Of a stretch of DNA of 64,000 bases, positions 16,551 through 54,821 are shown piece by piece. The translations under genes were made by a program, and so were the position numbers. Position 1 is the first letter of the stretch; every line of letters starts with the position of its first letter. Origin of the DNA: Patescibacteria group bacterium (GTDB lineage Bacteria; Patescibacteriota; Microgenomatia; CAYGWK01); NCBI GenBank assembly GCA_049322615.1, contig JBMORX010000009.1, positions 57,120 to 121,119 on the forward strand, in the 5' to 3' direction. Below the pieces are notes generated by a model. That model had not been told where the DNA came from. It made no database searches and saw only the letters and a program-made list of their open reading frames with translations.

Positions 16551-16575
16551 GGCAATTTACTCGGCGAATCCAGGA

Positions 16576-16629: not shown

Positions 16630-17286
16630 GTGGTGCAGTATTATCATCTTTATAACCGCGGTGTAGACAAACGGGTTATTTTTCTTGACGATACTGATAG
16701 ACAGCGATTTCTTGATGCTGTTAGGTTAGCAAGACTTTCGAATTCGCCCAGGCTTTCTTGGTTAAAAAGACAAATTAAAATTGGTAACATTTCTCCAACA
16801 CACCTTGAAAAATTGGAAGAAAAATATGGACCACCTCTTTTAGATATCGTTACCTACTCTCTAATGCCTAATCACTTCCACTTTCAAGTTAAGGAACTGA
16901 TAGAAGATGGAGTGAGTCAGTTTTTTCGAAAACTGGGAACAAGCTATGTAATGTATTTTAATATTAAACACGAAAGAACAGGACGATTGTTTGAATCCCA
17001 ATATAGGTCTGTGTTAATAGGAACTGACGAGCAATTAATTCACCTTTCTCGTTATATCCATACCAATCCTTACAATTCTTCCAAGAGAGACATTTCTCTT
17101 GAACAACTAAAAACTTATTCTTGGACGAGTCTCCCTGATTATCTAGGTACTCGTAAGCAGCCATTTTGTGACCCTACGGAAGTTATGTCATTTTTTAACT
17201 CACCTGAAGATTATTGGGAATTTTTAAAGGGAAATATTGATAAAGAAGAAGTTTTGCCCCCCGAGCTACTACTCGATCCAGGATAG
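16630..17286 (+). mobile_element. IS200/IS605-type HUH Y1 transposase, REP-associated (RayT-like)
   Basis: HUH motif LMPNHFHF and a downstream Tyr (RYIHTNPY); 218 aa; REP-A copies on both sides. Confidence 0.8.
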
Positions 17287-20158: not shown

Positions 20159-20335
20159 GGTTTGATTATAGCACCAATAACAATTAAAAAACCAACCTTT
20201 CGGCTGGTTGTCGATTAGTTTTAACCCCACTAACAAACCAGCCGTTTTAGACGCTGGTAGTTGTAGTTACAGTTAAAACCGCAATCATTATTTTGAATTA
20301 TACTAATAAAAATTTTATTGTCAAGTGGATGGCAT
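20159..20335 (-). promoter_or_regulatory. thrS promoter plus leader-peptide transcription attenuator
   Basis: minus strand: TTGACA, 16 nt, TATAAT. Hairpin ACCAGC/GCTGGT versus a perfect 8-bp alternative GGCTGGTT/AACCAGCC versus a terminator CAACC..GGTTG followed by TTTTTT. Confidence 0.7.
20247..20288 (-). CDS. Thr-rich leader peptide MIAVLTVTTTTSV
   Basis: 5 Thr codons among 13; the ORF ends inside the first attenuator hairpin. Confidence 0.6.
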   Translation of the reverse strand: MIAVLTVTTTTSV

Positions 20336-20379
20336 AGGACTCGAACCTATGACCTTTTCGATGTCAACGAAGCGCTCTT
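20326..20379 (-). pseudogene. tRNA 3' fragment (anticodon arm GAC, T arm, acceptor 3' strand plus CCA); 3' half of a tRNA split by an insertion
   Basis: T arm ATAGG-TTCGAGT-CCTAT, anticodon loop TTGACAT, no matching 5' acceptor strand adjacent. Confidence 0.6.
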
Positions 20380-20508
20380 CACCCGACTAACTTTTGCAGG
20401 TTGATTTTAGAAAGCCCAATTTAAACAAATAAAAATTTGTTGTTTTAGAGCTTCTTCTTAATTAACTCATTGGCAAAAGTTTGACGGGTAAACCAACTGA
20501 GCTCTTAG

Positions 20509-20582
20509 TGGGCGCATCAGGACTTGAACCTGAGACCTTTACTATGTCAAAGTAACGCTCTAGCCACCTGAGCTATGCGCCC
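20509..20582 (-). tRNA. tRNA-Val(GAC), no CCA encoded
   Basis: manual cloverleaf: acceptor GGGCGCA/TGCGCCC, anticodon loop TTGACAT, T loop TTCAAGT. Confidence 0.85.
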
Positions 20583-20826
20583 AGTAATTCTTTAAGACCT
20601 TTTTTAAATGAGTTCTCCCCCAGCCTGTTTTAAAATATTTTTCTCTGCTAGTTGCGTCTTGTTGATTTAAATACGCTTCGTAATAAATTAATCTAAATGG
20701 TTTTCTATATTTTGTTATTGCAACCTCACCAGAATTATGTTCTTCAAATCTTCGTTTTAGATTATCCGTATAACCTACGTACAATTTTCTATCTTTCAAA
20801 CTTTCTAGTACATAGACATGATACAT
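20560..20826 (-). CDS. GIY-YIG domain protein (small URI-type nuclease); its 3' end overlaps tRNA-Val
   Basis: YVYVLES...KLYVGYTDNLKRRFEEHN... GIY-YIG block; 88 aa. Confidence 0.8.
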   Translation of the reverse strand: MYHVYVLESLKDRKLYVGYTDNLKRRFEEHNSGEVAITKYRKPFRLIYYEAYLNQQDATSREKYFKTGWGRTHLKKVLKNYWAHSSGG

Positions 20827-20945
20827 AGACGCTCTTTACCCGTCAAACTTTCGCCCAATAATTAAGAAAGCCTTTATTAATAAATAAGTCTCATTTCTTA
20901 AGTTAGTATTTTAAAACAAACCGCGAAAGTTAGTCGGGTAAACCA

Positions 20946-20968
20946 ACTGAGCTATCCGCCCGTAGGCT
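20946..20968 (-). pseudogene. tRNA 5' fragment (acceptor plus D-arm 5' part) broken in the D-loop by the element TIR
   Basis: GGGCGGA-TA-GCTC-AGTTGGTT followed directly by TACCCGACTAACTTT. Confidence 0.55.
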
Positions 20969-44767: not shown

Positions 44768-44851
44768 TGGCGGAATCGGTATACGCGCAACACTTAAAAT
44801 GTTGTGGGTGTAAAATCACCCATGAGGGTTCGAGTCCCTCCTGGCCCACCA
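44761..44851 (+). tRNA. tRNA-Leu(TAA) with encoded CCA
   Basis: acceptor GGGCTAG/CTGGCCC, anticodon loop CTTAAAA, long variable arm, T loop TTCGAGT. Confidence 0.8.
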
Positions 44852-44852
44852 T

Positions 44853-44926
44853 CGGGGAGTAGCTCAGTTGGTTTAGAGTGCGCGCTTTGGGAGCGTGAGG
44901 CCGGCGGTTCGAATCCGCCCTCCCCG
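44853..44926 (+). tRNA. tRNA-Pro(TGG)
   Basis: acceptor CGGGGAG/CTCCCCG, anticodon loop TTTGGGA, T loop TTCGAAT. Confidence 0.8.
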
Positions 44927-44991
44927 ACCCTTCGGCTTCGCCTCAGGGCAAGCTGAAAAATGTTTACACCGAACCCGCTAAGGCGGGTGAG

Positions 44992-45204
44992 GTGCGGGTG
45001 TAGTTCAGTTAGTAGAACGTCTCCCTTCCAGCCCGAAAAATCGCCTTCGGTGATTAACGGGCTAGGCACGTTAATTTGTGCGGGAGTAGCTCAGTTGGGA
45101 GAGCGTCTCCCTTCCAAGGAGAAGGTCGCGAGTTCAAATCTCGTCTCCCGCTCACAAATTTTACGTGCCAAGGAGAAGGTCGTGGGAGCAAGGCCCATCA
45201 CCCG
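44992..45204 (+). pseudogene. decayed tRNA-Gly(TCC) split in its anticodon loop (5' half 44992-45028, 3' half 45166-45204) with an intact tRNA-Gly(TCC) embedded between the halves
   Basis: outer acceptor GCGGGTG/CACCCGC perfect and anticodon stems intact; outer T loop degenerate (AGCAAGG); CCA duplicated at both junctions; inner gene bounded by the inverted repeats GCACGTTAATTTGTG / CACAAATTTTACGTGC. Confidence 0.65.
45078..45150 (+). tRNA. tRNA-Gly(TCC)
   Basis: acceptor GCGGGAG/CTCCCGC, anticodon loop CTTCCAA, T loop TTCAAAT. Confidence 0.85.
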
Positions 45205-45232
45205 CTCAAGTTTACTCCGAACGAATGTGAGG

Positions 45233-45333
45233 AGCCCCTGTAGCTCAATGGATAAGCTGGCTTTTCAAGCCATCTTAATCCGCAAGGCGGATTAAGCGAG
45301 CTTGACCATTTCGCACAGTGGCTCGCGATGCTC
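45233..45333 (+). pseudogene. tRNA 5' fragment duplicating the first 25 nt of tRNA-Arg(TCT), followed by the hairpins TTAATCCGCAAGGCGGATTAA and GCGAGC..GCTCGC
   Basis: GCCCCTGTAGCTCAATGGATAAGC versus the intact GCCCCTGTAGCTCAATGGATAGAGC; anticodon region non-canonical. Confidence 0.55.
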
Positions 45334-45406
45334 GCCCCTGTAGCTCAATGGATAGAGCGGGTCGGTTCTAACGACTAGGTTGGGGGTTCGACTCCCTCCA
45401 GGGGCA
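45334..45406 (+). tRNA. tRNA-Arg(TCT)
   Basis: acceptor GCCCCTG/CAGGGGC, anticodon loop GTTCTAA, T loop TTCGACT. Confidence 0.8.
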
Positions 45407-45422
45407 CCCTTCGATAAACCAT

Positions 45423-45498
45423 GGTGGTGTTAGCTCAAAGGTAGAGCGTCGGCCTGTGGAGCCGAATGTTGCGGGTTCGAATCCCGTACACCACCCCA
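45423..45498 (+). tRNA. tRNA-His(GTG) with encoded G-1 and CCA
   Basis: G-1 pairs with C73; acceptor GTGGTGT/ACACCAC; anticodon loop CTGTGGA. Confidence 0.85.
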
Positions 45499-45500
45499 AG

Positions 45501-46829
45501 TTATTTTCTTGAAATTTCGTAGGTGGTGGGGTGATAGAGAAAAATGACCGGAACCTCTTCAACTAAAAATCTTTGAAAATCAAAGTAAATTTTTTCCCTC
45601 TCTTCCCTATTTTGGGTTTTCCGACCATCCTCAAGAAGCTTGTCAATCCTTGGATTCTTAAACTGAGTGATGTTTCCCGTTTGGGTTGAATGCCAAAGAC
45701 TGTATTGATCAGGATCTTTGGGAATTTCTTGGGTAGCCAAAAGAATATCAAAATCCTCTCCGAGTTGGGTAAAAGCGCCAATTTCCACTTTCACTCCCAA
45801 ATCCTGCCAGGAATTTTTAATTTTTTCTGCCTCGGAAAGAAGTGAGGGAACAGTTGAAAGCCTAATGGTAATTTCCTTTTTTTCTTTTTTCTCCAAAACC
45901 TTATTCAGGAGTCTTTTAGCATTTTCTAAATCATAGTTATAGGCTTTAACATCTTCGCTATAAGCCCAAGAGAGAGGCGAAAGCGGACCATAAGCCCTTG
46001 TCTTTCCTTGCTCTTTTTTGGTAGTATAAGCCAGGGCTTGACGAAAGTTTTTCTCTTCAAGATATGGCTTTTGGGTGTTTAAAAATATACCGACAAAGCG
46101 ATCCTGGCGAACACGCGAGAAAACCTTAATATTTTTCCAATTTGTAAATCCGTTCGGGTTAGTCAAATCCACAAGTTTTCTAACCTCACCTAATTTTAGG
46201 GCAATTTTTCCAGTCTCCTCTGTTGGATAAAAACGATATTTAAGGTTTGGTTTTTCCCGAGAGAGAGAGTCAAGAGAAATTGCCTCCACAAACTGCCCGG
46301 TTTTGGTTATTTTTTTAACTTTATAAGGTCCAACTCCAACTAATCCCTTTTTAAAAACAGGCCGCGAGACAACTTCTGGTAGGGGTGAAAATGGTTCTTT
46401 GAGACGGAAACGGATAGTTTTTGGGTCTAAAATCTCAACTGAAACGTCTTGAAAATTATAATTTATATCAGAAGCAGTCACTTTTGAGCCGTCGTGCCAG
46501 AAAAGATTATCCCTTAAAAAAAATGTGTAAACTTTGCTTCCTTCCTCAACTTTCCAATCATTAGCAATTCCTGGTGTCGACGTTCCATCTTGGTCAAGTT
46601 TAGTTAAGCCAAAGGAAATTAAGTTTTGAATTTCTAAGGGAATCTCTGAAGGCCGAAACCTACCAACAATTCCAATTGTTTCAGTTGGTTTTCTTTTAGG
46701 TATAAACCCGCTTAATTGAGGCAAGAAAAAGAAAAAGAAAATTCCTAGCAAAAATCCTAAAATTACCAAAAATCTGTAGCGAATAAGAAATAAACTCAAA
46801 AGTCTTATAGTAAAGCGAATTTTTTTCAT
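45501..46829 (-). CDS. ABC transporter substrate-binding protein, family 5 (peptide/nickel type)
   Basis: N-terminal TM/signal; overall resemblance to SBP_bac_5; 442 aa. Confidence 0.5.
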   Translation of the reverse strand: MKKIRFTIRLLSLFLIRYRFLVILGFLLGIFFFFFLPQLSGFIPKRKPTETIGIVGRFRPSEIPLEIQNLISFGLTKLDQDGTSTPGIANDWKVEEGSKVYTFFLRDNLFWHDGSKVTASDINYNFQDVSVEILDPKTIRFRLKEPFSPLPEVVSRPVFKKGLVGVGPYKVKKITKTGQFVEAISLDSLSREKPNLKYRFYPTEETGKIALKLGEVRKLVDLTNPNGFTNWKNIKVFSRVRQDRFVGIFLNTQKPYLEEKNFRQALAYTTKKEQGKTRAYGPLSPLSWAYSEDVKAYNYDLENAKRLLNKVLEKKEKKEITIRLSTVPSLLSEAEKIKNSWQDLGVKVEIGAFTQLGEDFDILLATQEIPKDPDQYSLWHSTQTGNITQFKNPRIDKLLEDGRKTQNREEREKIYFDFQRFLVEEVPVIFLYHPTTYEISRK

Positions 46830-50507: not shown

Positions 50508-53456
50508 TTATCTTAGAATTTCTCTTAAAAATTGTCCAGTGTAGGAGTTTTTAGCCCTCGCCACATCCAATGGTGTTCCGCTGGCGACAATATAGCCTCC
50601 TTTGTCTCCTCCTTCAGGACCAAGATCAATTATCCAGTCGGCGTTTTTAATTACATCAAGATTGTGTTCGATAATGACGACCGTATTGCCTAAACTAACC
50701 AGTCTTCGCAAAACATTTAAAAGTTTCTCCAAATCAGCAAAATGAAGCCCGGTCGTTGGCTCATCCAAAATATAAAAAGTTTGACCAGTGGCTCTTTTCC
50801 CAAGTTCTGCGGCAATTTTGACTCTTTGCGCCTCACCTCCAGAAAGTGTCGGCGCCGGTTGACCAAGATGAATATATCCTAAACCGACGTCAGAGAGAGT
50901 TTTTAGTTTTTCGAAAAGACCAGGAATATTTTTGAAAAATTCTAAAGCCTCCTCTACTGTCATCTCCAGGACTTCAGCAATATTTTTACCCTTAAAGGCG
51001 ACTTCAAGAGTTTCCGAGTTATATCTTTTTCCTTGGCAAACTTCGCAATTAACATAAACATCAGGTAAAAACTGCATTTCTATTTTAATCTGCCCCTCGC
51101 CTTGGCAGGCTTCACACCGACCATTTTGGACATTAAAAGAAAACCTTCCAGGCTTATACCCCCTTATCTTTGCCTCAGGTAGCTGGCTGAAGAGGTCACG
51201 AATGTAGGTAAAAACACCGGTATAAGTGGCTGGATTTGACCTTGGAGTTCTACCAATTGGTGATTGGTCAATCAAAATGACCTTATTGATAAATTCTCCC
51301 CCCTTAAGACCCCCAAATTTACCTGGTTTTTCTTTATGAAAGGGGTGAAGTTGCTGCGCTAGAGCATGATAAAGAGTCTCAACTACCAAAGTTGACTTCC
51401 CTGAACCTGAAACTCCAGTGATACAAATAAATTTCCCCAAAGGAAAGGTAACGTCGATATTTTTAAGATTAAACTGGGAACACCCTAACAAAATCAGGTT
51501 TTCCTTCTTGCACCCCTGGGGTGAAACAGCCTCACACCTGCGGAAATTGTTATTCTCAATTTCAATTCTTTTTCTTCCCGCCAAATAGTCTCCTGTTAAG
51601 GAATAGTGGTTGGTCTTTATTTGCTGAACAGTTCCTTCTGCCACGATCTCGCCCCCATGATCACCAGCCCCAGGACCGAAATCCAAAATCCAGTCGGCTG
51701 ATTCCATCATTTCTCGGTCGTGTTCAACGACAATCACCGTATTTCCTAAATCGCGAAGTCTTTTTAAAGTCTGGATTAATTTTTTATTATCCCGCTGATG
51801 GAGTCCAACCGATGGTTCATCTAAAACATATAAAACTCCAGATAAACCCGAACCTATTTGGGAGGCAAGCCTGATTCTTTGACCCTCACCGCCAGCCAAA
51901 GTAGCCGAAGGTCTATCCAAAGTTAAATATTCAAGCCCAACGGATTTCAAAAACGAAAGTCTTTCTCTTATTTCTTTTAAAATTGGATTGGCAATTTTTA
52001 ATTCTTTTTCGGAGAGTAATTTTTGAGTTTCCAAAAGCTCAATCCACCCCAAGGCTTTGTCAATAGAGAATTGAACAACATCGACAATCGACTTTCCTTC
52101 AATGGTTATTCCTTGTGATTCTCTCTTAAGGCGACTACCTTGGCAGGTTGGACAAATTTCCTGCCTCATATATTTTTCAATTTCTTGCCGGACAAAGTCC
52201 GATTCAGTTTCGGAAAATTTTCTCTCAAGTTCAGGGATTACTCCAGGATAAACTTCATAAATTGAGGTCATTCTGCCATAACGGTTTTCTCCCTCAACTC
52301 GCCAAACTTCGTCACCTGTTCCATAAAGTAAAACTTTCTTTTGTTCCAAAGATAAATTTCCCAGAGGCGCATCAAGCCTTATTCCATATTTTTGGCAGAC
52401 AGTTTTTGCAATCCTTGAGAACCAGGTGTCGTGAAAAAACATTCTGGCAAAAGGCAAAATTCCCCCTTCATTTATGGTTAGCCGGGGATTAAGCAAAAGT
52501 TCGGGGTCAACCTTCAAAAGCGCCCCTATTCCTGAACAAGTTGGACAGGCGCCGTAAGGAGAATTAAAAGAAAAAGTTCTTGGTTCAATTTCCGGTAAAG
52601 AGAGATTGCAGGTTGGACAAGCAAATTTTTGGGAAAAAAGATGGTCTTCCATTTTCTTTGGTTTTTCCGGGAATTCAAAAGAGGCATCCTTAACTTGAGA
52701 AAGAATCACCAAACCATCAGATAATTTTAAGGCTTGTTCAACCGCATCAGTAATTCTCGTTTTGAGATTTGAAAAAGAGACAGGGTCTTTTATTTGACTT
52801 TTCTCAAGAGAAATTCGGTCAATCACAACTTCAATTGTATGTTTATTGGTCTTAATTAAAACCAAATCTTCCGAGAGTCCAAAAACTTGACCATCAATTC
52901 TGGCTCGGGTAAATCCTTTAGACTGAAGATTTGTGAAAAGTTGGCTAAATTCGCCTTTTCTGGATCGAACAACCGGAGAAAGAATCAGAAATTTAACCAC
53001 TTTAAATGATTGAAGTGCCACTTTAATTAATTGAAGTACCTGATCGACTATTTGTTGAGAACTCTGCTGACTGATTTCCTGACCGCAAGAAGGACAATGG
53101 GGATGACCCACTCTGGCAAAAAGAAGTCTTAAATAATCATAGATTTCCGTAACCGTGCCGACAGTTGAACGCGGGTTATGAGAAACGCCTTTTTGATCAA
53201 TGGAAATTGCTGGCGAAAGTCCTTCGATTAAGTCAACATCTGGTTTATCCATTACCCCCAAAAACTGGCGAGCATAGGCAGAAAGGCTTTCAACGTATCT
53301 TCTTTGCCCTTCAGCATAAATAGTGTCAAAAGCCAAAGAAGATTTTCCACTGCCGGAAATTCCCGTAAAAACCACCAGTTTATTCTTGGGAATCTCAACA
53401 TTGATGTTTTTAAGATTGTGTTCTCGGGCTCCTTGGATGACAATTTTTTCGTTCAC
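50508..53456 (-). CDS. uvrA: excinuclease ABC subunit A with a ~15-aa in-frame REP-B insertion
   Basis: two ABC ATPase modules ([10 protein letters not shown]; [10 protein letters not shown]) and zinc-finger Cys clusters; insertion [15 protein letters not shown] at 51507-51546. Confidence 0.9.
51507..51546. repeat. REP-like element family B (TTGCACCCCNGGGGTGA...ACACCTGCGGA), in frame inside uvrA
   Basis: same family as 54147-54186 and 54861-54902. Confidence 0.8.
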
Positions 53457-54146: not shown

Positions 54147-54186
54147 TTGCACCCCCGGGGTGATATGGCTTCACACCTGCGGATAA
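54147..54186. repeat. REP-like element family B copy, flank of transposase 2
   Basis: cttgcacccccggggtgatatggcttcacacctgcggataatcg. Confidence 0.8.
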
Positions 54187-54821
54187 TCGATTAATTGATG
54201 CTTGATTACCTCTAGCTGTTTTCCATAGTCCTCTTGATCATAAACAAATTTTTTATATTCATCTACCGATTTAAACTGGCTTAACACTATTTCTTTATGG
54301 CAAAGATTTTTATTGGTAGCTCCTAAATATTCCTTGAAAGAGGAAAAATCATACGATTCTAAAGACTTCACAATATATCCAACAAGTGGATTAAGATGAA
54401 TATATCGAGATAAATGAACAAGTTGCTCGTTGGTCTCGATATGTACTGCTTTAAACTCTCCTTGAAAAATTGGCCCATTCCTCTTGTACTTAGTGTTAAA
54501 GTATTTTGTGTAACTGTTACTTAGTTTACTAATAAATTCGGTTATTCCACCCTCTCTTACTTGTTGAAGAAGAAAATGAAAATGGTTAGGCATTAAGCAG
54601 TAGCAAACAAAATAGATTATTTTCTTTGTTGAGTTAATAAGCTTGGTGGATGGACTAAAAAAAGAAAATCTCGGTTTTGGATCTTCTATTTGGTAATAAA
54701 GCATTGTTTTTATAAATCGCTGGTGATCTCTATACCGAGTAAAAATAGGCATTTGAGCTATACCACGATTTAAAATATGATAGTATTCTCCATCGACAAA
54801 AGGCATTATCCTTGAAGGCAT
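54171..54821 (-). mobile_element. IS200/IS605-type HUH Y1 transposase, REP-associated (RayT-like), second copy
   Basis: YCLMPNHFHFLLQQ HUH motif and the Tyr region LSRYIHLNP; flanked on both sides by REP-B. Confidence 0.8.

What the first reader, a model, noticed from the sequence alone, without database searches (positions are those of the whole stretch)
44992..45204. tRNA-in-tRNA: intact tRNA-Gly(TCC) embedded in the anticodon loop of a decayed tRNA-Gly(TCC), with CCA duplicated at both junctions
The 5' half GCGGGTG..TCTCC-CTTCCA (44992-45028) and the 3' half (CCA)AGGAGA..CACCCGC (45166-45204) reconstitute a complete tRNA with perfect acceptor and anticodon stems and anticodon TCC. Its T loop has degenerated to AGCAAGG. 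About 140 nt between the halves hold a canonical tRNA-Gly(TCC) (45078-45150), flanked by the near-perfect inverted repeat GCACGTTAATTTGTG / CACAAATTTTACGTGC, which extends its acceptor stem. The trinucleotide CCA occurs at both insertion junctions (CTTCCA|G... and ...GTGCCA|AGG), like a 3-bp target-site duplication at anticodon-loop position 37/38. This is the same logic as the tRNA-Val element: insert into the tRNA gene, carry a replacement.
Basis: seen in the sequence. Interest (0 to 1): 0.9.

Follow-up and report, generated by a model that had tools for sequence, protein, structure and literature searches.

The report
tRNA gene nested inside tRNA gene
In this ultra-small (Patescibacteria) bacterium, the original tRNA-Gly(UCC) gene has been split in its anticodon loop by a 140-bp hairpin-armed insert that carries a complete replacement tRNA-Gly(UCC), and several similar nested tRNA genes occur in related genomes.

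Summary
The 5' half (44994-45030) and 3' half (45171-45206) join into a tRNA-Gly(UCC). They enclose a 140-nt insert holding a canonical tRNA-Gly(UCC) (45080-45152, Rfam 72 bits) between 14-16-nt complementary arms.

The outer gene is the ancestral resident. A related genome (L006) has it uninterrupted at the same array position, 70/73 identical, although neutral sites between the genomes are saturated. So the insertion is recent, and the outer copy is barely decayed.

The insert is composite: a 32-nt mini-palindrome, whose relatives sit in frame inside protein genes in metagenomes, plus the hairpin-armed tRNA cassette.

It is not unique. Window 44058-44219 holds a second nest (tRNA-Gly(GCC)), shared with two relatives. 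Other relatives have nested tRNA-Pro and tRNA-His. Every nest is same-anticodon, and sites are filled or empty in different genomes.

The same array holds an HNH endonuclease + tRNA-Leu(UAA) cassette that replaced the resident tRNA-Leu.

Best reading: a DNA-level selfish insertion that survives by bringing a replacement tRNA. There is no ribozyme or bulge-helix-bulge motif, so splicing is unlikely. The mobilising enzyme is unknown, and the 3-bp CCA "target duplication" is unproven. I found no published precedent.

The parts
43401..43429 (+). Promoter-like site of the tRNA array (TTGATT-17-TATAAT with TG). It is the only strong promoter-like site upstream of the nest; weaker ones lie just before the HNH gene.
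   Evidence: The TTGTTATAAT motif is conserved at the head of the arrays of L003, L005 and L007. No terminator-like sites in 43000-45700.
44994..45030 (+). Outer (ancestral resident) tRNA-Gly(UCC), 5' half: acceptor strand, D arm, anticodon stem 5' strand and loop positions 32-37 (CTTCCA).
   Evidence: It matches L006's living gene with one D-loop indel (97% over 38 aligned columns).
45031..45062 (+). 32-nt mini-palindrome GCCCGAAAAATCGCCTTCGGTGATTAACGGGC, a separate small palindromic element at the left junction.
   Evidence: It folds as a hairpin. Seven metagenome loci carry the same family, six of them inside ORFs of more than 300 codons or at the matching position of a homologous sequence, where it is in frame and read as PxKSPxAING. 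Another copy lies in the leader of L007's array. It is single-copy in the window.
45066..45079 (+). 5' arm of the tRNA cassette (GCACGTTAATTTGT). It pairs with the 3' arm and extends the inner acceptor stem.
45080..45152 (+). Inner, canonical tRNA-Gly(UCC): D loop AGTTGGGA, T loop TTCAAAT. It is presumed to be the working gene.
   Evidence: Rfam RF00005 72 bits and ARAGORN. It is 62/73 identical to the native allele, with compensatory differences in the acceptor, D and T stems.
45153..45168 (+). 3' arm of the tRNA cassette (CACAAATTTTACGTGC).
45171..45206 (+). Outer tRNA-Gly(UCC), 3' half: A38, anticodon stem 3' strand, variable loop, T arm (loop AGCAAGG), acceptor strand and discriminator T. 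The encoded CCA of the native gene is CAA here.
44058..44219 (+). Sister nest. The shell of the ancestral tRNA-Gly(GCC) (44058-44082 and 44186-44219) encloses arms GCCCCGCACC/GGTGCGGGG and a canonical inner tRNA-Gly(GCC) (44096-44167). The outer anticodon stem-loop is missing.
   Evidence: The shell matches the native GCC genes of L005 and L006. The same nest is in L003 and L007.
44219..44851 (+). HNH + tRNA-Leu(UAA) cassette. It consists of a 24-nt 5' remnant of the resident tRNA-Leu(UAA) (44219-44242), the HNH ORF (44291-44767), and a different tRNA-Leu(UAA) allele (44761-44851).
   Evidence: The resident allele is intact in L003, L005 and L006. HNH homologs are always followed by tRNA-Leu(UAA).
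45234..45333 (+). 21-nt duplicate of the 5' end of tRNA-Arg(UCU), followed by a 79-nt insert containing a 19-nt-arm palindrome. It lies directly upstream of the intact tRNA-Arg (45334-45406).
   Evidence: D10, I2. L006 has no such insert.

Best explanation
WHAT IT IS
This is the array-resident, ancestral tRNA-Gly(UCC) gene of a Patescibacteria (CPR) lineage. It has been split at the DNA level in its anticodon loop, after position 37; the junction is ambiguous within CCA. The 140-bp insertion is composite:
1. A 32-nt mini-palindrome of an RPE-like family.
2. A hairpin-armed cassette whose apex is a complete, canonical tRNA-Gly(UCC).

HOW IT WORKS (inferred)
- The whole array is transcribed from one upstream promoter.
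- Ordinary tRNA end-processing (RNase P at the 5' end, RNase Z or exonucleases at the 3' end, possibly helped by cleavage of the roughly 22-bp acceptor-plus-arm helix) releases the inner tRNA, which now decodes GGA/GGG.
- The outer halves cannot be rejoined, because there is no ribozyme and no bulge-helix-bulge motif. They are a very young pseudogene.

WHY IT PERSISTS (inferred)
- The cassette belongs to a family of same-anticodon nests in this clade: Gly-UCC, Gly-GCC, Pro-UGG, His-GUG.
- Interrupting an essential, apparently single-copy tRNA gene is survivable only because the insert supplies a replacement.
- Spread is most likely by double-strand-break repair (homing) between related genomes.
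- The nuclease or transposase responsible is not identified. Candidates are trans-acting HNH or GIY-YIG endonucleases like those in the same genome, or a hairpin-specific (HUH/RAYT-like) enzyme.

SHOWN
- The outer gene is ancestral, and an empty site exists.
- The inner tRNA is canonical.
- The arms are specific to nests.
- The nests recur and are polymorphic between genomes.
- The mini-palindrome belongs to a dispersed family.
- The HNH gene is linked to tRNA-Leu(UAA).

INFERRED
- DNA-level mobility.
- That the inner tRNA is the functional copy and the outer is dead.
- Homing as the mode of spread.
For: 1. Empty site. L006 (GCA_964487495.1) has the same array order, with an uninterrupted tRNA-Gly(UCC) between Pro and Arg. 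It is 70/73 identical to the joined outer halves, and all 3 substitutions are in the T loop. Four-fold degenerate sites of the adjacent SBP gene are saturated (identity 0.42 for W vs L006). So the outer was under tRNA-level constraint until recently.
2. The inner tRNA is a different allele (62/73 identical to the native), with a canonical D loop and T loop and the top Rfam score in the window.
3. No self-splicing intron: no Rfam hit other than tRNA in 43400-45700 reaches a gathering score, even when listing to E<=10. No promoter or terminator lies inside the insert.
4. Recurrence and polymorphism. The GCC site is filled in W, L003 and L007 and empty in L005 and L006. The Pro site is filled in L005 and L007 and empty in W and L006. 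The His site is filled in L005. The TCC site is filled in W and empty in L005, L006 and L031. All nests are same-anticodon.
5. Strong leader-trailer arms occur only around nested tRNAs. The arm termini are alike between nests that carry different cargo (GCCCCGCACCAAT, GCCCCGTAACAATTT, GCCCCGTAAATTT) and resemble the mini-palindrome terminus CCCCGTAAAATC.
6. The outer anticodon arm is missing in the GCC nests and in L005's Pro and His nests, so those outers cannot yield a decoding tRNA.
7. The same array shows endonuclease-linked replacement. A 24-nt remnant of the resident tRNA-Leu(UAA) is followed by the HNH ORF and a new tRNA-Leu(UAA). The HNH family has more than 6,000 members at about 70% identity across CPR phyla. 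It is followed by tRNA-Leu(UAA) in every bacterial context fetched and in several phage tRNA arrays.
8. In the GCC nest, the unpaired linkers vary more than the shell (4/13 vs 3/60 columns, p = 0.016), and one arm pair shows the series C-G / U.G / U-A. This fits an element with its own history landing in host genes that were still intact when it arrived.
Against: - No endonuclease or transposase ORF lies in the insert, and only one instance of the TCC nest was found. Mobility of this particular cassette is therefore inferred from its relatives.
- The arm sequences differ between nests. The two RAYT-like genes in the window have other cognate palindromes.
- The 24 nt around the insertion site are identical in the inner and outer tRNAs. 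This is awkward for a site-specific nuclease that must spare the cargo.
- The outer TCC is essentially intact and recreates a perfect anticodon loop on paper.
- The GCC shell is as conserved as a living tRNA across three genomes whose neutral sites are saturated. That could instead mean the shell has a function.
- No expression data exist.
- The rest of the genome, including possible second tRNA-Gly copies or RNA ligases and endonucleases, was not visible.
Confidence: 0.6

Rival explanations
1. The tRNA-like shell is kept because it does something. The double-cloverleaf precursor would be a functional unit, in which the outer acceptor, D and T arms act as a scaffold or processing platform (or a decoy) for the inner tRNA. 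The outer would then be under selection as a structured RNA rather than being a pseudogene.
For: - The GCC shell is 57/59 identical between W and L003, although 4-fold sites are only 47% identical (P ~1e-16 under neutrality).
- Shell variability (3/60 columns) is not distinguishable from the living inner tRNA (1/72, p = 0.33) and is lower than the linkers (p = 0.016).
- The 42-nt insertion in the L003/L007 shell sits at the variable-loop/T-stem boundary and leaves an intact T arm.
- All stems of the TCC outer are intact, and the nested folds are very stable.
Against: - Shell conservation is equally explained if each invasion lands in a host gene that was still under tRNA-level selection, so that its decay clock restarts each time.
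- The outer of L005's His nest has uncompensated T-stem changes.
- Relatives do without shells (L006, compact array).
- No known bacterial pathway needs such a scaffold.
- The sample is tiny: 3 sequences and 13 linker columns.
Confidence: 0.15
2. It is a true intron-containing tRNA gene. The 140-nt insert is removed at the RNA level by an unknown bacterial endonuclease plus ligase, or after RNase P/Z cuts, so that both the outer and the inner tRNA-Gly(UCC) are produced.
For: - The insert sits at the canonical 37/38 position.
- Joining the halves restores a perfect 7-nt anticodon loop and a complete cloverleaf.
- The outer shows almost no decay.
- Long complementary arms next to the junctions recall the split tRNAs of Nanoarchaeum (own knowledge).
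Against: - The junction is a three-way multiloop with no bulge-helix-bulge motif.
- There is no group I or group II ribozyme, and 140 nt is too short for one.
- RNase P/Z cuts would leave the arms attached to the halves, so ligation would not restore an anticodon loop.
- The sister nests lack the outer anticodon arm altogether.
- T54A in the outer T loop is seen in none of about 55 functional tRNAs examined.
- No RtcB or EndA-like gene was found among the 38 larger window ORFs scanned against Pfam.
Confidence: 0.08
3. It is a one-off local rearrangement, not a mobile element. Illegitimate recombination or break repair captured a second tRNA-Gly(UCC) copy, from a duplicate or from foreign DNA, into the resident gene. 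The arms and the hairpin are incidental flanking DNA.
For: - Only one TCC nest was found.
- There is no ORF in the insert.
- The array is littered with partial tRNA duplicates and small palindromes.
- The CCA microhomology fits end-joining.
Against: - At least four further nests (GCC in W/L003/L007, Pro in L005 and in L007, His in L005) share the same design: same-anticodon cargo, an entry point in the anticodon arm, and strong arms with similar termini.
- Strong arms are absent from un-nested tRNAs.
- Filled and empty states do not follow the relationships suggested by the SBP gene.
Confidence: 0.12
4. It is an assembly chimera of two strain variants of tRNA-Gly(UCC).
For: The source is a metagenome-assembled genome. 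The inner and outer share an identical 24-nt stretch.
Against: - A second assembly is 100% identical over 4.8 kb, although it may derive from the same reads.
- A chimera would switch between alleles. It would not create a nest with 49 nt and 18 nt of unique linker sequence.
- The analogous GCC nest is found in three different samples.
Confidence: 0.02

Closest known systems
Free-standing homing endonucleases in tRNA gene clusters (phage T4 SegB; T5 F-Tfl enzymes) and 'intronless homing'
   Same: Selfish nuclease genes live inside tRNA arrays and drive replacement of the homologous tRNA region in naive genomes. In this window an HNH gene is welded to a tRNA-Leu(UAA) that replaced the resident copy, and its phage homologs sit in phage tRNA arrays. 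SegB is mentioned in PMC13096335, which appeared in the search list but was not read; the rest is own knowledge.
   Different: The TCC nest has no nuclease ORF. The resident gene is not replaced but kept as two halves around the incoming gene. The cargo sits between complementary arms.
Group I introns in bacterial tRNA anticodon loops, including Patescibacteria (Nakagawa et al. 2026, PMC13011429)
   Same: It is an insertion in the anticodon loop of a tRNA gene in the same phylum. The host tolerates the insertion, and standard annotation misses the outer gene.
   Different: Those inserts are self-splicing ribozymes of more than 200 nt that restore the tRNA at the RNA level. Here there is no ribozyme, and harmlessness comes from a carried replacement gene.
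Integrative elements (phages, ICEs) that insert into tRNA genes and carry a copy of the tRNA 3' segment
   Same: A tRNA gene is the target, and the element carries tRNA sequence that keeps the function intact (own knowledge).
   Different: Those are kilobase-scale elements with an integrase that duplicate only part of the tRNA. Here a 140-bp insert without a recombinase carries a whole tRNA of a different allele, and the target is left broken.
Rickettsia palindromic elements (RPEs) and REP/RAYT systems
   Same: The 32-nt hairpin at the left junction belongs to a family of short palindromes inserted in frame in protein genes, as RPEs are (own knowledge; PMC1779305 appeared in the search list but was not read). 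The genome also has two RAYT-like genes with their own dispersed palindromes.
   Different: I am not aware of any RPE or REP reported to carry a tRNA gene between its arms. The nest arms do not match the palindromes flanking the RAYT genes.
Archaeal intron-containing, split and permuted tRNA genes (BHB introns; Nanoarchaeum split tRNAs; the box C/D RNA in the tRNA-Trp intron)
   Same: The interruption is at 37/38. Long complementary sequences lie next to the junction. A functional RNA is housed inside a tRNA interruption (own knowledge).
   Different: This is a bacterium, there is no bulge-helix-bulge motif, and the sister nests lack the outer anticodon arm.

Membership tests
tRNA (Rfam RF00005): inner copy | Cloverleaf covariance-model score above the gathering threshold (29 bits) | tested here: met
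   72 bits at 45080-45152. ARAGORN calls tRNA-Gly(tcc).
tRNA: outer copy (joined halves) | Acceptor, D, anticodon and T stems plus a 7-nt anticodon loop once the insert is removed | tested here: met
   ARAGORN calls the joined sequence tRNA-Gly(tcc). It is 70/73 identical to L006's gene, which scores 68.6 bits in Rfam.
Group I intron in a tRNA gene | Group I ribozyme core detectable by covariance model | tested here: not met
   No group I or II intron hit in 43400-45700, even at E<=10. The insert is 140 nt, of which 73 are the inner tRNA.
Group I intron in a tRNA gene | Insertion within the anticodon loop | tested here: met
   The junction is after position 37.
Archaeal/eukaryal-type (BHB) tRNA intron | Bulge-helix-bulge: two 3-nt bulges separated by a 4-bp helix at the splice sites | tested here: not met
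   The MFE and centroid structures show a three-way junction with 5, 1 and 2 unpaired nt. No sequence complementary to the anticodon-loop nucleotides lies at the insert's 3' end.
Archaeal/eukaryal-type (BHB) tRNA intron | Splicing endonuclease (EndA) and ligase encoded by the genome | not testable with these tools
   Only 64 kb of a contig of at least 202 kb is visible. None was found among the 38 larger window ORFs scanned against Pfam.
Homing-endonuclease cassette / intronless homing | Endonuclease ORF within or next to the inserted segment | tested here: not met
   There is no real ORF in 45031-45170. The nearest nuclease gene (HNH, 44291-44767) belongs to the tRNA-Leu cassette.
Homing-endonuclease cassette / intronless homing | Filled and empty alleles of the same site in related genomes | tested here: met
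   W is filled; L006 is empty at the orthologous position. The GCC and Pro sites are also polymorphic.
Transposon / MITE | Terminal inverted repeats at both ends of the insert | tested here: inconclusive
   Imperfect 14-16-nt inverted arms flank the tRNA. However, the left arm is internal, with the 32-nt palindrome and TAG lying outside it.
Transposon / MITE | Target-site duplication of fixed length | tested here: inconclusive
   CCA occurs at both junctions of this nest only. The other nests show loss of the outer anticodon arm and no duplication.
Transposon / MITE | Multiple near-identical copies in the genome and a cognate transposase | tested here: not met
   The arms and the hairpin are single-copy in the window. 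The RAYT-like genes are flanked by different palindromes. The rest of the genome was not visible.
RPE-like palindromic mini-element (applies to 45031-45062 only) | Short palindrome family dispersed in unrelated loci, tolerated in frame inside protein genes | tested here: met
   Seven metagenome loci plus L007 carry it. It is in frame and read as PxKSPxAING in ORFs that I read as PriA-like, Fmt-like and glycosyltransferase-like from their motifs, without a family search.
Integrase-mediated insertion into a tRNA gene | Tyrosine or serine recombinase and att repeats that duplicate the tRNA 3' part | tested here: not met
   No recombinase lies in or next to the insert. The insert carries a whole tRNA of another allele, not a duplicate of the target's 3' part.

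The most novel reading that the evidence does not exclude
The nests represent an undescribed class of bacterial selfish element: hairpin-armed cassettes that carry a whole tRNA gene, enter the anticodon arm of the same-anticodon resident gene, and neutralise the damage with their cargo. This would be a third route, beside self-splicing introns and inteins, to living inside an essential gene. In the strongest form, the conserved outer shell is not junk. Either the double-cloverleaf precursor is a selected processing unit, or the outer tRNA is rejoined by a bacterial tRNA-splicing pathway that has not been described.
Probability: 0.15. Interest if true: 0.9.

Novelty: new variant of a known kind. 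Interest (0 to 1): 0.72.

Why it matters
- Selfish insertions into essential genes are known to stay harmless by splicing themselves out (introns, inteins) or by duplicating the piece of the target they displace (integrative elements). Here the insert appears to carry a complete substitute gene and to leave the old one in place as a shell around it. Several versions occur in one CPR clade, next to endonuclease + tRNA cassettes that do the same job with a nuclease on board.
- It suggests that tRNA arrays of Patescibacteria turn over by cassette replacement. Native alleles with unusual elbows (G55 T loops) are being displaced by canonical ones.
- Standard annotation will miss or miscount such genes.
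- If the shell proves to be under selection, or is spliced, that would point to new RNA biology in bacteria.
- The in-frame mini-palindromes add a second, RPE-like layer of selfish DNA in these reduced genomes.

Tried and rejected
- ARAGORN intron mode and Rfam (gathering thresholds and E<=10) do not detect the outer gene unspliced and find no intron family.
The coordinates are 2 nt low.
- The genome-contig scan with the outer 5'-half pattern returned only L006's contig.
- Viral scans for the hairpin and for the inner tRNA 3' part found nothing.
- blastn of the insert against the phage and plasmid collections gave only generic tRNA-Gly matches, with no arms and no donor.
- Look-ups of more distant SBP homologs (P0010, P0014, P0018, P0019) gave loci without the array next to the gene.
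- The RAYT link was rejected as a direct explanation. The two Y1 transposase genes are flanked by their own palindromes (GCACCCCNGGGGTGA and CCAGGATAGYCCTGG), which do not match the nest arms or the hairpin.
- Leader-trailer pairing as a general feature of tRNA units in these arrays was rejected.
- A 12-nt match between the tRNA-Arg insert and the HNH gene (D14) was judged to be chance.
- Literature searches for nested or interrupted tRNA genes and for CPR palindromic elements found no precedent.
- I could not obtain the TCC region of the closest relatives (L003, L007), because their contigs end inside the array.
Full report
**1. The observation**

The window is a bacterial chromosome segment of about 40% GC that encodes UvrA, UvrB, UvrC and a class A penicillin-binding protein. 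Its proteins identify it as a Patescibacteria (CPR) metagenome-assembled genome with Microgenomates-type relatives.

A dense tRNA array lies at 43539-45498.

| Part | Coordinates | Sequence / note |
|---|---|---|
| Outer 5' half | 44994-45030 | GCGGGTG..CTTCCA |
| Insert | 45031-45170 | 140 nt |
| Outer 3' half | 45171-45206 | AGGAGA..CACCCGCT |
| Inner tRNA-Gly(TCC) | 45080-45152 | Rfam 72 bits, the best tRNA score in the window |

With the corrected junction, ARAGORN calls the joined halves tRNA-Gly(tcc), with all stems intact.
- The differences between outer and inner are compensatory in the acceptor, D and T stems.
- The RNA MFE structure of the whole 213 nt is a nested double cloverleaf (-90.9 kcal/mol, z = -5.9). 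In it, arms 45066-45079 and 45153-45168 extend the inner acceptor stem.
- A finder that demands an outer acceptor stem, D arm and T arm around a called tRNA hits 4/54 (strict) or 5/126 (relaxed) distinct tRNAs, against 0.3-1% for shuffled flanks.
- A second assembly is 100% identical over 4.8 kb, although it may derive from the same reads.

**2. Which copy is the original?**

Relatives were reached through the solute-binding-protein (SBP) gene that abuts the array. They keep the same tRNA order: Leu-CAG, Leu-GAG, Val-TAC, Phe, Gly-GCC, Leu-TAA, Pro, Gly-TCC, Arg-TCT, His.

- In L006 the array is compact and un-nested. Its tRNA-Gly(TCC), lying between Pro and Arg, is 70/73 identical to the joined outer halves plus one D-loop indel. 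The inner copy is only 62/73 identical.
- Four-fold degenerate sites of the SBP gene are saturated between all these genomes (identity 0.32-0.50). The outer must therefore have been under tRNA-level constraint until recently, which means the insertion is young.
- The three substitutions all lie in the T loop (TGCAAAT to AGCAAGG).
  - The native loop is already non-canonical (G55), and the gene still scores 68.6 bits.
  - This 'TGC' class is shared by the native Gly and Phe genes of the clade.
  - Only T54A is atypical, so 'decayed' overstates the case.

**3. Composition of the insert**

The first 32 nt (45031-45062) are a hairpin, GCCCGAAAAATCGCCTTCGGTGATTAACGGGC.

- A generalised pattern found seven metagenome loci with the same 30-nt element.
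- In five of them it lies in frame inside long ORFs and is read as PxKSPxAING. From their sequence motifs I read these ORFs as PriA-like, Fmt-like and glycosyltransferase-like; I did not run a family search on them. A sixth (L013) has it at the position matching L014 and L017, and L018 has it just upstream of a gene start.
- L007 has one in the leader of its array.
- It is single-copy in the window.
- It is thus a separate, RPE-like mini-element.

The rest of the insert is TAG, the 5' arm, the inner tRNA, the 3' arm and CA. No Rfam family other than tRNA reaches its gathering score in the region, even when listing to E<=10. No promoter-like or terminator-like site lies inside the insert; one strong, conserved promoter precedes the array.

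**4. It is one of a family**

- *GCC nest in the window.* Window 44058-44219 is a second nest. The shell of the native tRNA-Gly(GCC) is identical in its 34-nt 3' part to the living gene of L006, which L005's gene matches at 33/34. It encloses arms GCCCCGCACC/GGTGCGGGG and a canonical tRNA-Gly(GCC). The outer anticodon stem-loop is gone.
- *GCC nest in relatives.* The same nest is in L003 and L007. There an extra 42-nt GC-rich insert sits at the variable-loop/T-stem boundary and leaves an intact T arm.
- *tRNA-Pro nests.* L005 and L007 have nested tRNA-Pro, with arms GCCCCGTAACAATTT/AAATTTGTACGGGG and GCCCCGTAAATTT. The window's tRNA-Pro is the uninterrupted counterpart of L007's outer copy.
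- *tRNA-His nest.* L005 also has a nested tRNA-His whose outer T stem is broken.
- *Shared design.* All nests are same-anticodon and enter through the anticodon arm, and filled and empty states differ between genomes.
- *Arms.* Strong leader-trailer pairing is confined to nested tRNAs. The arm termini resemble each other and the terminus of the mini-palindrome, CCCCGTAAAATC. This suggests, but does not prove, a common palindromic 'vehicle' whose apex holds either a short stem-loop or a tRNA.

**5. Endonuclease-linked replacement in the same genome**

- *tRNA-Leu(UAA).*
  - At 44219-44242 only the first 24 nt of the resident tRNA-Leu(UAA) remain; it is intact in L003, L005 and L006.
  - They are followed by an HNH ORF (44291-44767) and a different tRNA-Leu(UAA) allele.
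  - The HNH family has more than 6,000 members, at about 70% identity across many CPR phyla, which is far more conserved than the neighbouring housekeeping gene.
  - In every bacterial context fetched it is followed directly by tRNA-Leu(UAA). L031 also has a 5' tRNA-Leu remnant upstream, and L032 a decayed one.
  - Phage homologs sit in phage tRNA arrays, several of them directly upstream of tRNA-Leu(UAA).
- *tRNA-Val.* At 20330-20965 (minus strand), a GIY-YIG ORF plus a complete tRNA-Val(GAC) lie inside remnants of another tRNA-Val.
- *tRNA-Arg and tRNA-Leu(CAG).* Both also have 5' remnants upstream of the working gene.

The array is thus a mosaic that turns over by cassette replacement. Alleles of Val-TAC and Leu-CAG also differ between relatives.

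**6. How it most likely works**

*Shown:*
- The outer gene is ancestral and the inner is a foreign or variant allele.
- The insert is DNA with no ribozyme.
- The design recurs and is polymorphic between genomes.

*Inferred:*
- The array is transcribed as one precursor, and RNase P and 3' processing release the inner tRNA, which decodes GGA/GGG.
- The outer halves are not rejoined.
  - The junction is a three-way multiloop, not a bulge-helix-bulge.
  - RNase P/Z cuts would leave the arms attached to the halves.
  - Three of the sister nest types (GCC, L005 Pro, L005 His) lack an outer anticodon arm.
- Same-anticodon nesting follows either from survivorship or from a nuclease that targets that gene. 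Under survivorship, an insertion that breaks an essential, apparently single-copy tRNA gene is tolerated only if it brings the same tRNA.

*On the agent, I can only rank candidates:*
- Trans-acting homing endonucleases like the HNH and GIY-YIG genes in this genome.
- A hairpin-specific HUH enzyme. The window has two RAYT-like genes (54171-54821 and 16630-17286), but each has its own, different palindromes.
- End-joining capture.

The CCA repeat is too short, and is not repeated at the other nests, so it cannot count as a target-site duplication.

**7. The unresolved point: the shell**

In the GCC nest shared by W, L003 and L007, variable alignment columns are distributed as follows:

| Class | Variable columns |
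|---|---|
| Unpaired linkers | 4/13 |
| Arms | 2/19 (one compensatory series, C-G / U.G / U-A) |
| Shell | 3/60 |
| Inner tRNA | 1/72 |

Linkers differ from the shell at p = 0.016. The shell does not differ from the inner tRNA (p = 0.33). With neutral sites saturated, the shell cannot be an old, vertically inherited pseudogene. Two readings remain:

- *(a) Repeated homing.* At each invasion the shell is formed from the recipient's own gene, which was under tRNA-level selection until that moment. Shells therefore look undecayed, while the element's internal linkers carry older divergence.
- *(b) A functional shell.* The shell is under selection as a structured RNA.

I favour (a), because nests are polymorphic, relatives manage without shells, and one shell (L005 His) is visibly broken. 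The sample is small, and (b) is kept as the main rival.

**8. Comparison with what is known**

- Group I introns are frequent in Patescibacteria tRNA genes (PMC13011429). This is not one.
- It works like homing-endonuclease cassettes in phage tRNA clusters, and like integrative elements that restore the tRNA they disrupt. It differs in carrying a whole tRNA between hairpin arms, in lacking a nuclease or recombinase gene, and in leaving the target as a shell.
- The left-junction hairpin behaves like Rickettsia palindromic elements.
- Full-text searches found no description of a tRNA gene nested in a tRNA gene in bacteria.

**Verdict**

- The core interpretation, an insertion that carries a replacement, is supported.
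- The 'decay' and 'target-site duplication' details are not supported.
- The mechanism of mobility is unknown.
- This is a new variant of known selfish-insertion strategies. Interest is 0.72.

Noticed in passing
window 44058-44219: A second tRNA-in-tRNA. A canonical tRNA-Gly(GCC) (44096-44167) sits between arms GCCCCGCACC/GGTGCGGGG, inside the shell of the native tRNA-Gly(GCC) (T loop TGCGAAT), whose anticodon stem-loop is missing. The nest is shared with L003 and L007.
   Followed up: yes
window 44219-44851; L031 160-800; L032 2430-3070: An HNH endonuclease ORF is fused head-to-tail with a tRNA-Leu(UAA) and preceded by a 5' remnant of the resident tRNA-Leu. The HNH family has more than 6,000 members at about 70% identity across CPR phyla. 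It is followed by tRNA-Leu(UAA) in every bacterial context fetched, and its phage homologs sit in phage tRNA arrays.
   Followed up: yes
window 20330-20965 (minus strand): The tRNA-Val locus holds an 88-aa GIY-YIG ORF plus a complete tRNA-Val(GAC) (20508-20582) between two partial tRNA-Val copies. Each partial copy carries a roughly 100-nt hairpin insert in the D loop, with stems TACCCGACTAACTTTCGC/GCGAAAGTTTGACGGGTA and TACCCGTCAAACTTTTGC/GCAAAAGTTAGTCGGGTG. The A.A and T.T mismatches are conserved but swapped between the two copies.
   Followed up: partly
window 45234-45333: The first 21 nt of tRNA-Arg(UCU) are duplicated upstream of the intact gene (45334-45406). The two copies are separated by 79 nt containing a 19-nt-arm palindrome (45265-45305) whose core, TTAATCCGC-AAG-GCGGATTAA, resembles the mini-palindrome core.
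   Followed up: partly
window 43443-43538: A 16-nt 5' remnant of a tRNA-Leu (GCCGAGGTGGCGGAAT, identical to the start of L003's tRNA-Leu(CAG)) is followed by about 80 nt of structured sequence bounded by CCCG...CGGG. It lies just upstream of the working tRNA-Leu(CAG) allele.
   Followed up: partly
L012-L018 (metagenome loci); L007 3068-3100: A 30-nt palindrome, CCCG-N-AAAATCGCC-NNNN-GGCGATTAACGGG, lies inside ORFs that I read as PriA-like, Fmt-like and glycosyltransferase-like from their motifs. It is always in the one frame without stop codons and is read as PxKSPxAING. This is an RPE-like selfish mini-element of CPR bacteria.
   Followed up: partly
window 54171-54821 (-), 16630-17286 (+); REP copies at 16570, 16598, 17278, 17306, 24048, 24076, 26245, 26273, 57047, 57075 and at 51510, 54149, 54863: Two RAYT-like (Y1/HUH) transposase genes are each flanked by their own palindrome. 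CCAGGATAGYCCTGG is dispersed as 28-nt-spaced doublets. GCACCCCNGGGGTGA has a copy inside a variable linker of uvrA (UvrA residues 645-649).
   Followed up: partly
L005 12292-12465 and 12698-12868; L007 3766-3858: Relatives have further nests. tRNA-Pro(UGG) lies inside a tRNA-Pro shell in L005 and in L007 (L007's contig ends inside the nest; the window's tRNA-Pro is the empty counterpart). tRNA-His(GUG) lies inside a tRNA-His shell in L005, where the inner copy has T loop GGCAGAG and the outer T stem is broken.
   Followed up: partly
L005 12120-12191, L006 12454-12527 and 12759-12830; tRNA-Phe of L005, L007 and L020: The native tRNA-Gly and tRNA-Phe genes of this clade have T loops of the form TGCRAAT or TGCAAYT (G at position 55 instead of U) and D loops without the usual G18-G19 context. 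They still score 54-69 bits in Rfam. In the window, canonical alleles have displaced the native Gly alleles.
   Followed up: partly
L003 9415-9449; L007 3606-3647; window 43906-43925 and 44929-44950: Small GC-rich hairpin-forming inserts of the type CCTTCGSCTYCGCC... recur in the arrays. One interrupts the GCC shell of L003 and L007 at the variable-loop/T-stem boundary, with a GCGGG duplication. Similar sequences follow tRNA-Phe and tRNA-Pro in the window.
   Followed up: no
window 36446-43388: A low-GC (32-36%) island lies between the YchF/Obg-type GTPase gene and the tRNA array, which are adjacent in L006. It encodes a NYN-domain protein, an N6/N4 DNA methylase, DUF3800 and several ORFs with no family match.
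   Followed up: no
window 44983-44993; 44964-44976 and 45211-45223: An 11-nt near-copy of the outer tRNA's 5' end (GCGGGTGAGGT) lies directly upstream of it. A leader motif, GTTTACWCCGAAC...TGAGG, precedes both the outer tRNA-Gly(UCC) and the tRNA-Arg remnant. GTTTAC-type motifs also follow tRNAs in L006's spacers.
   Followed up: no
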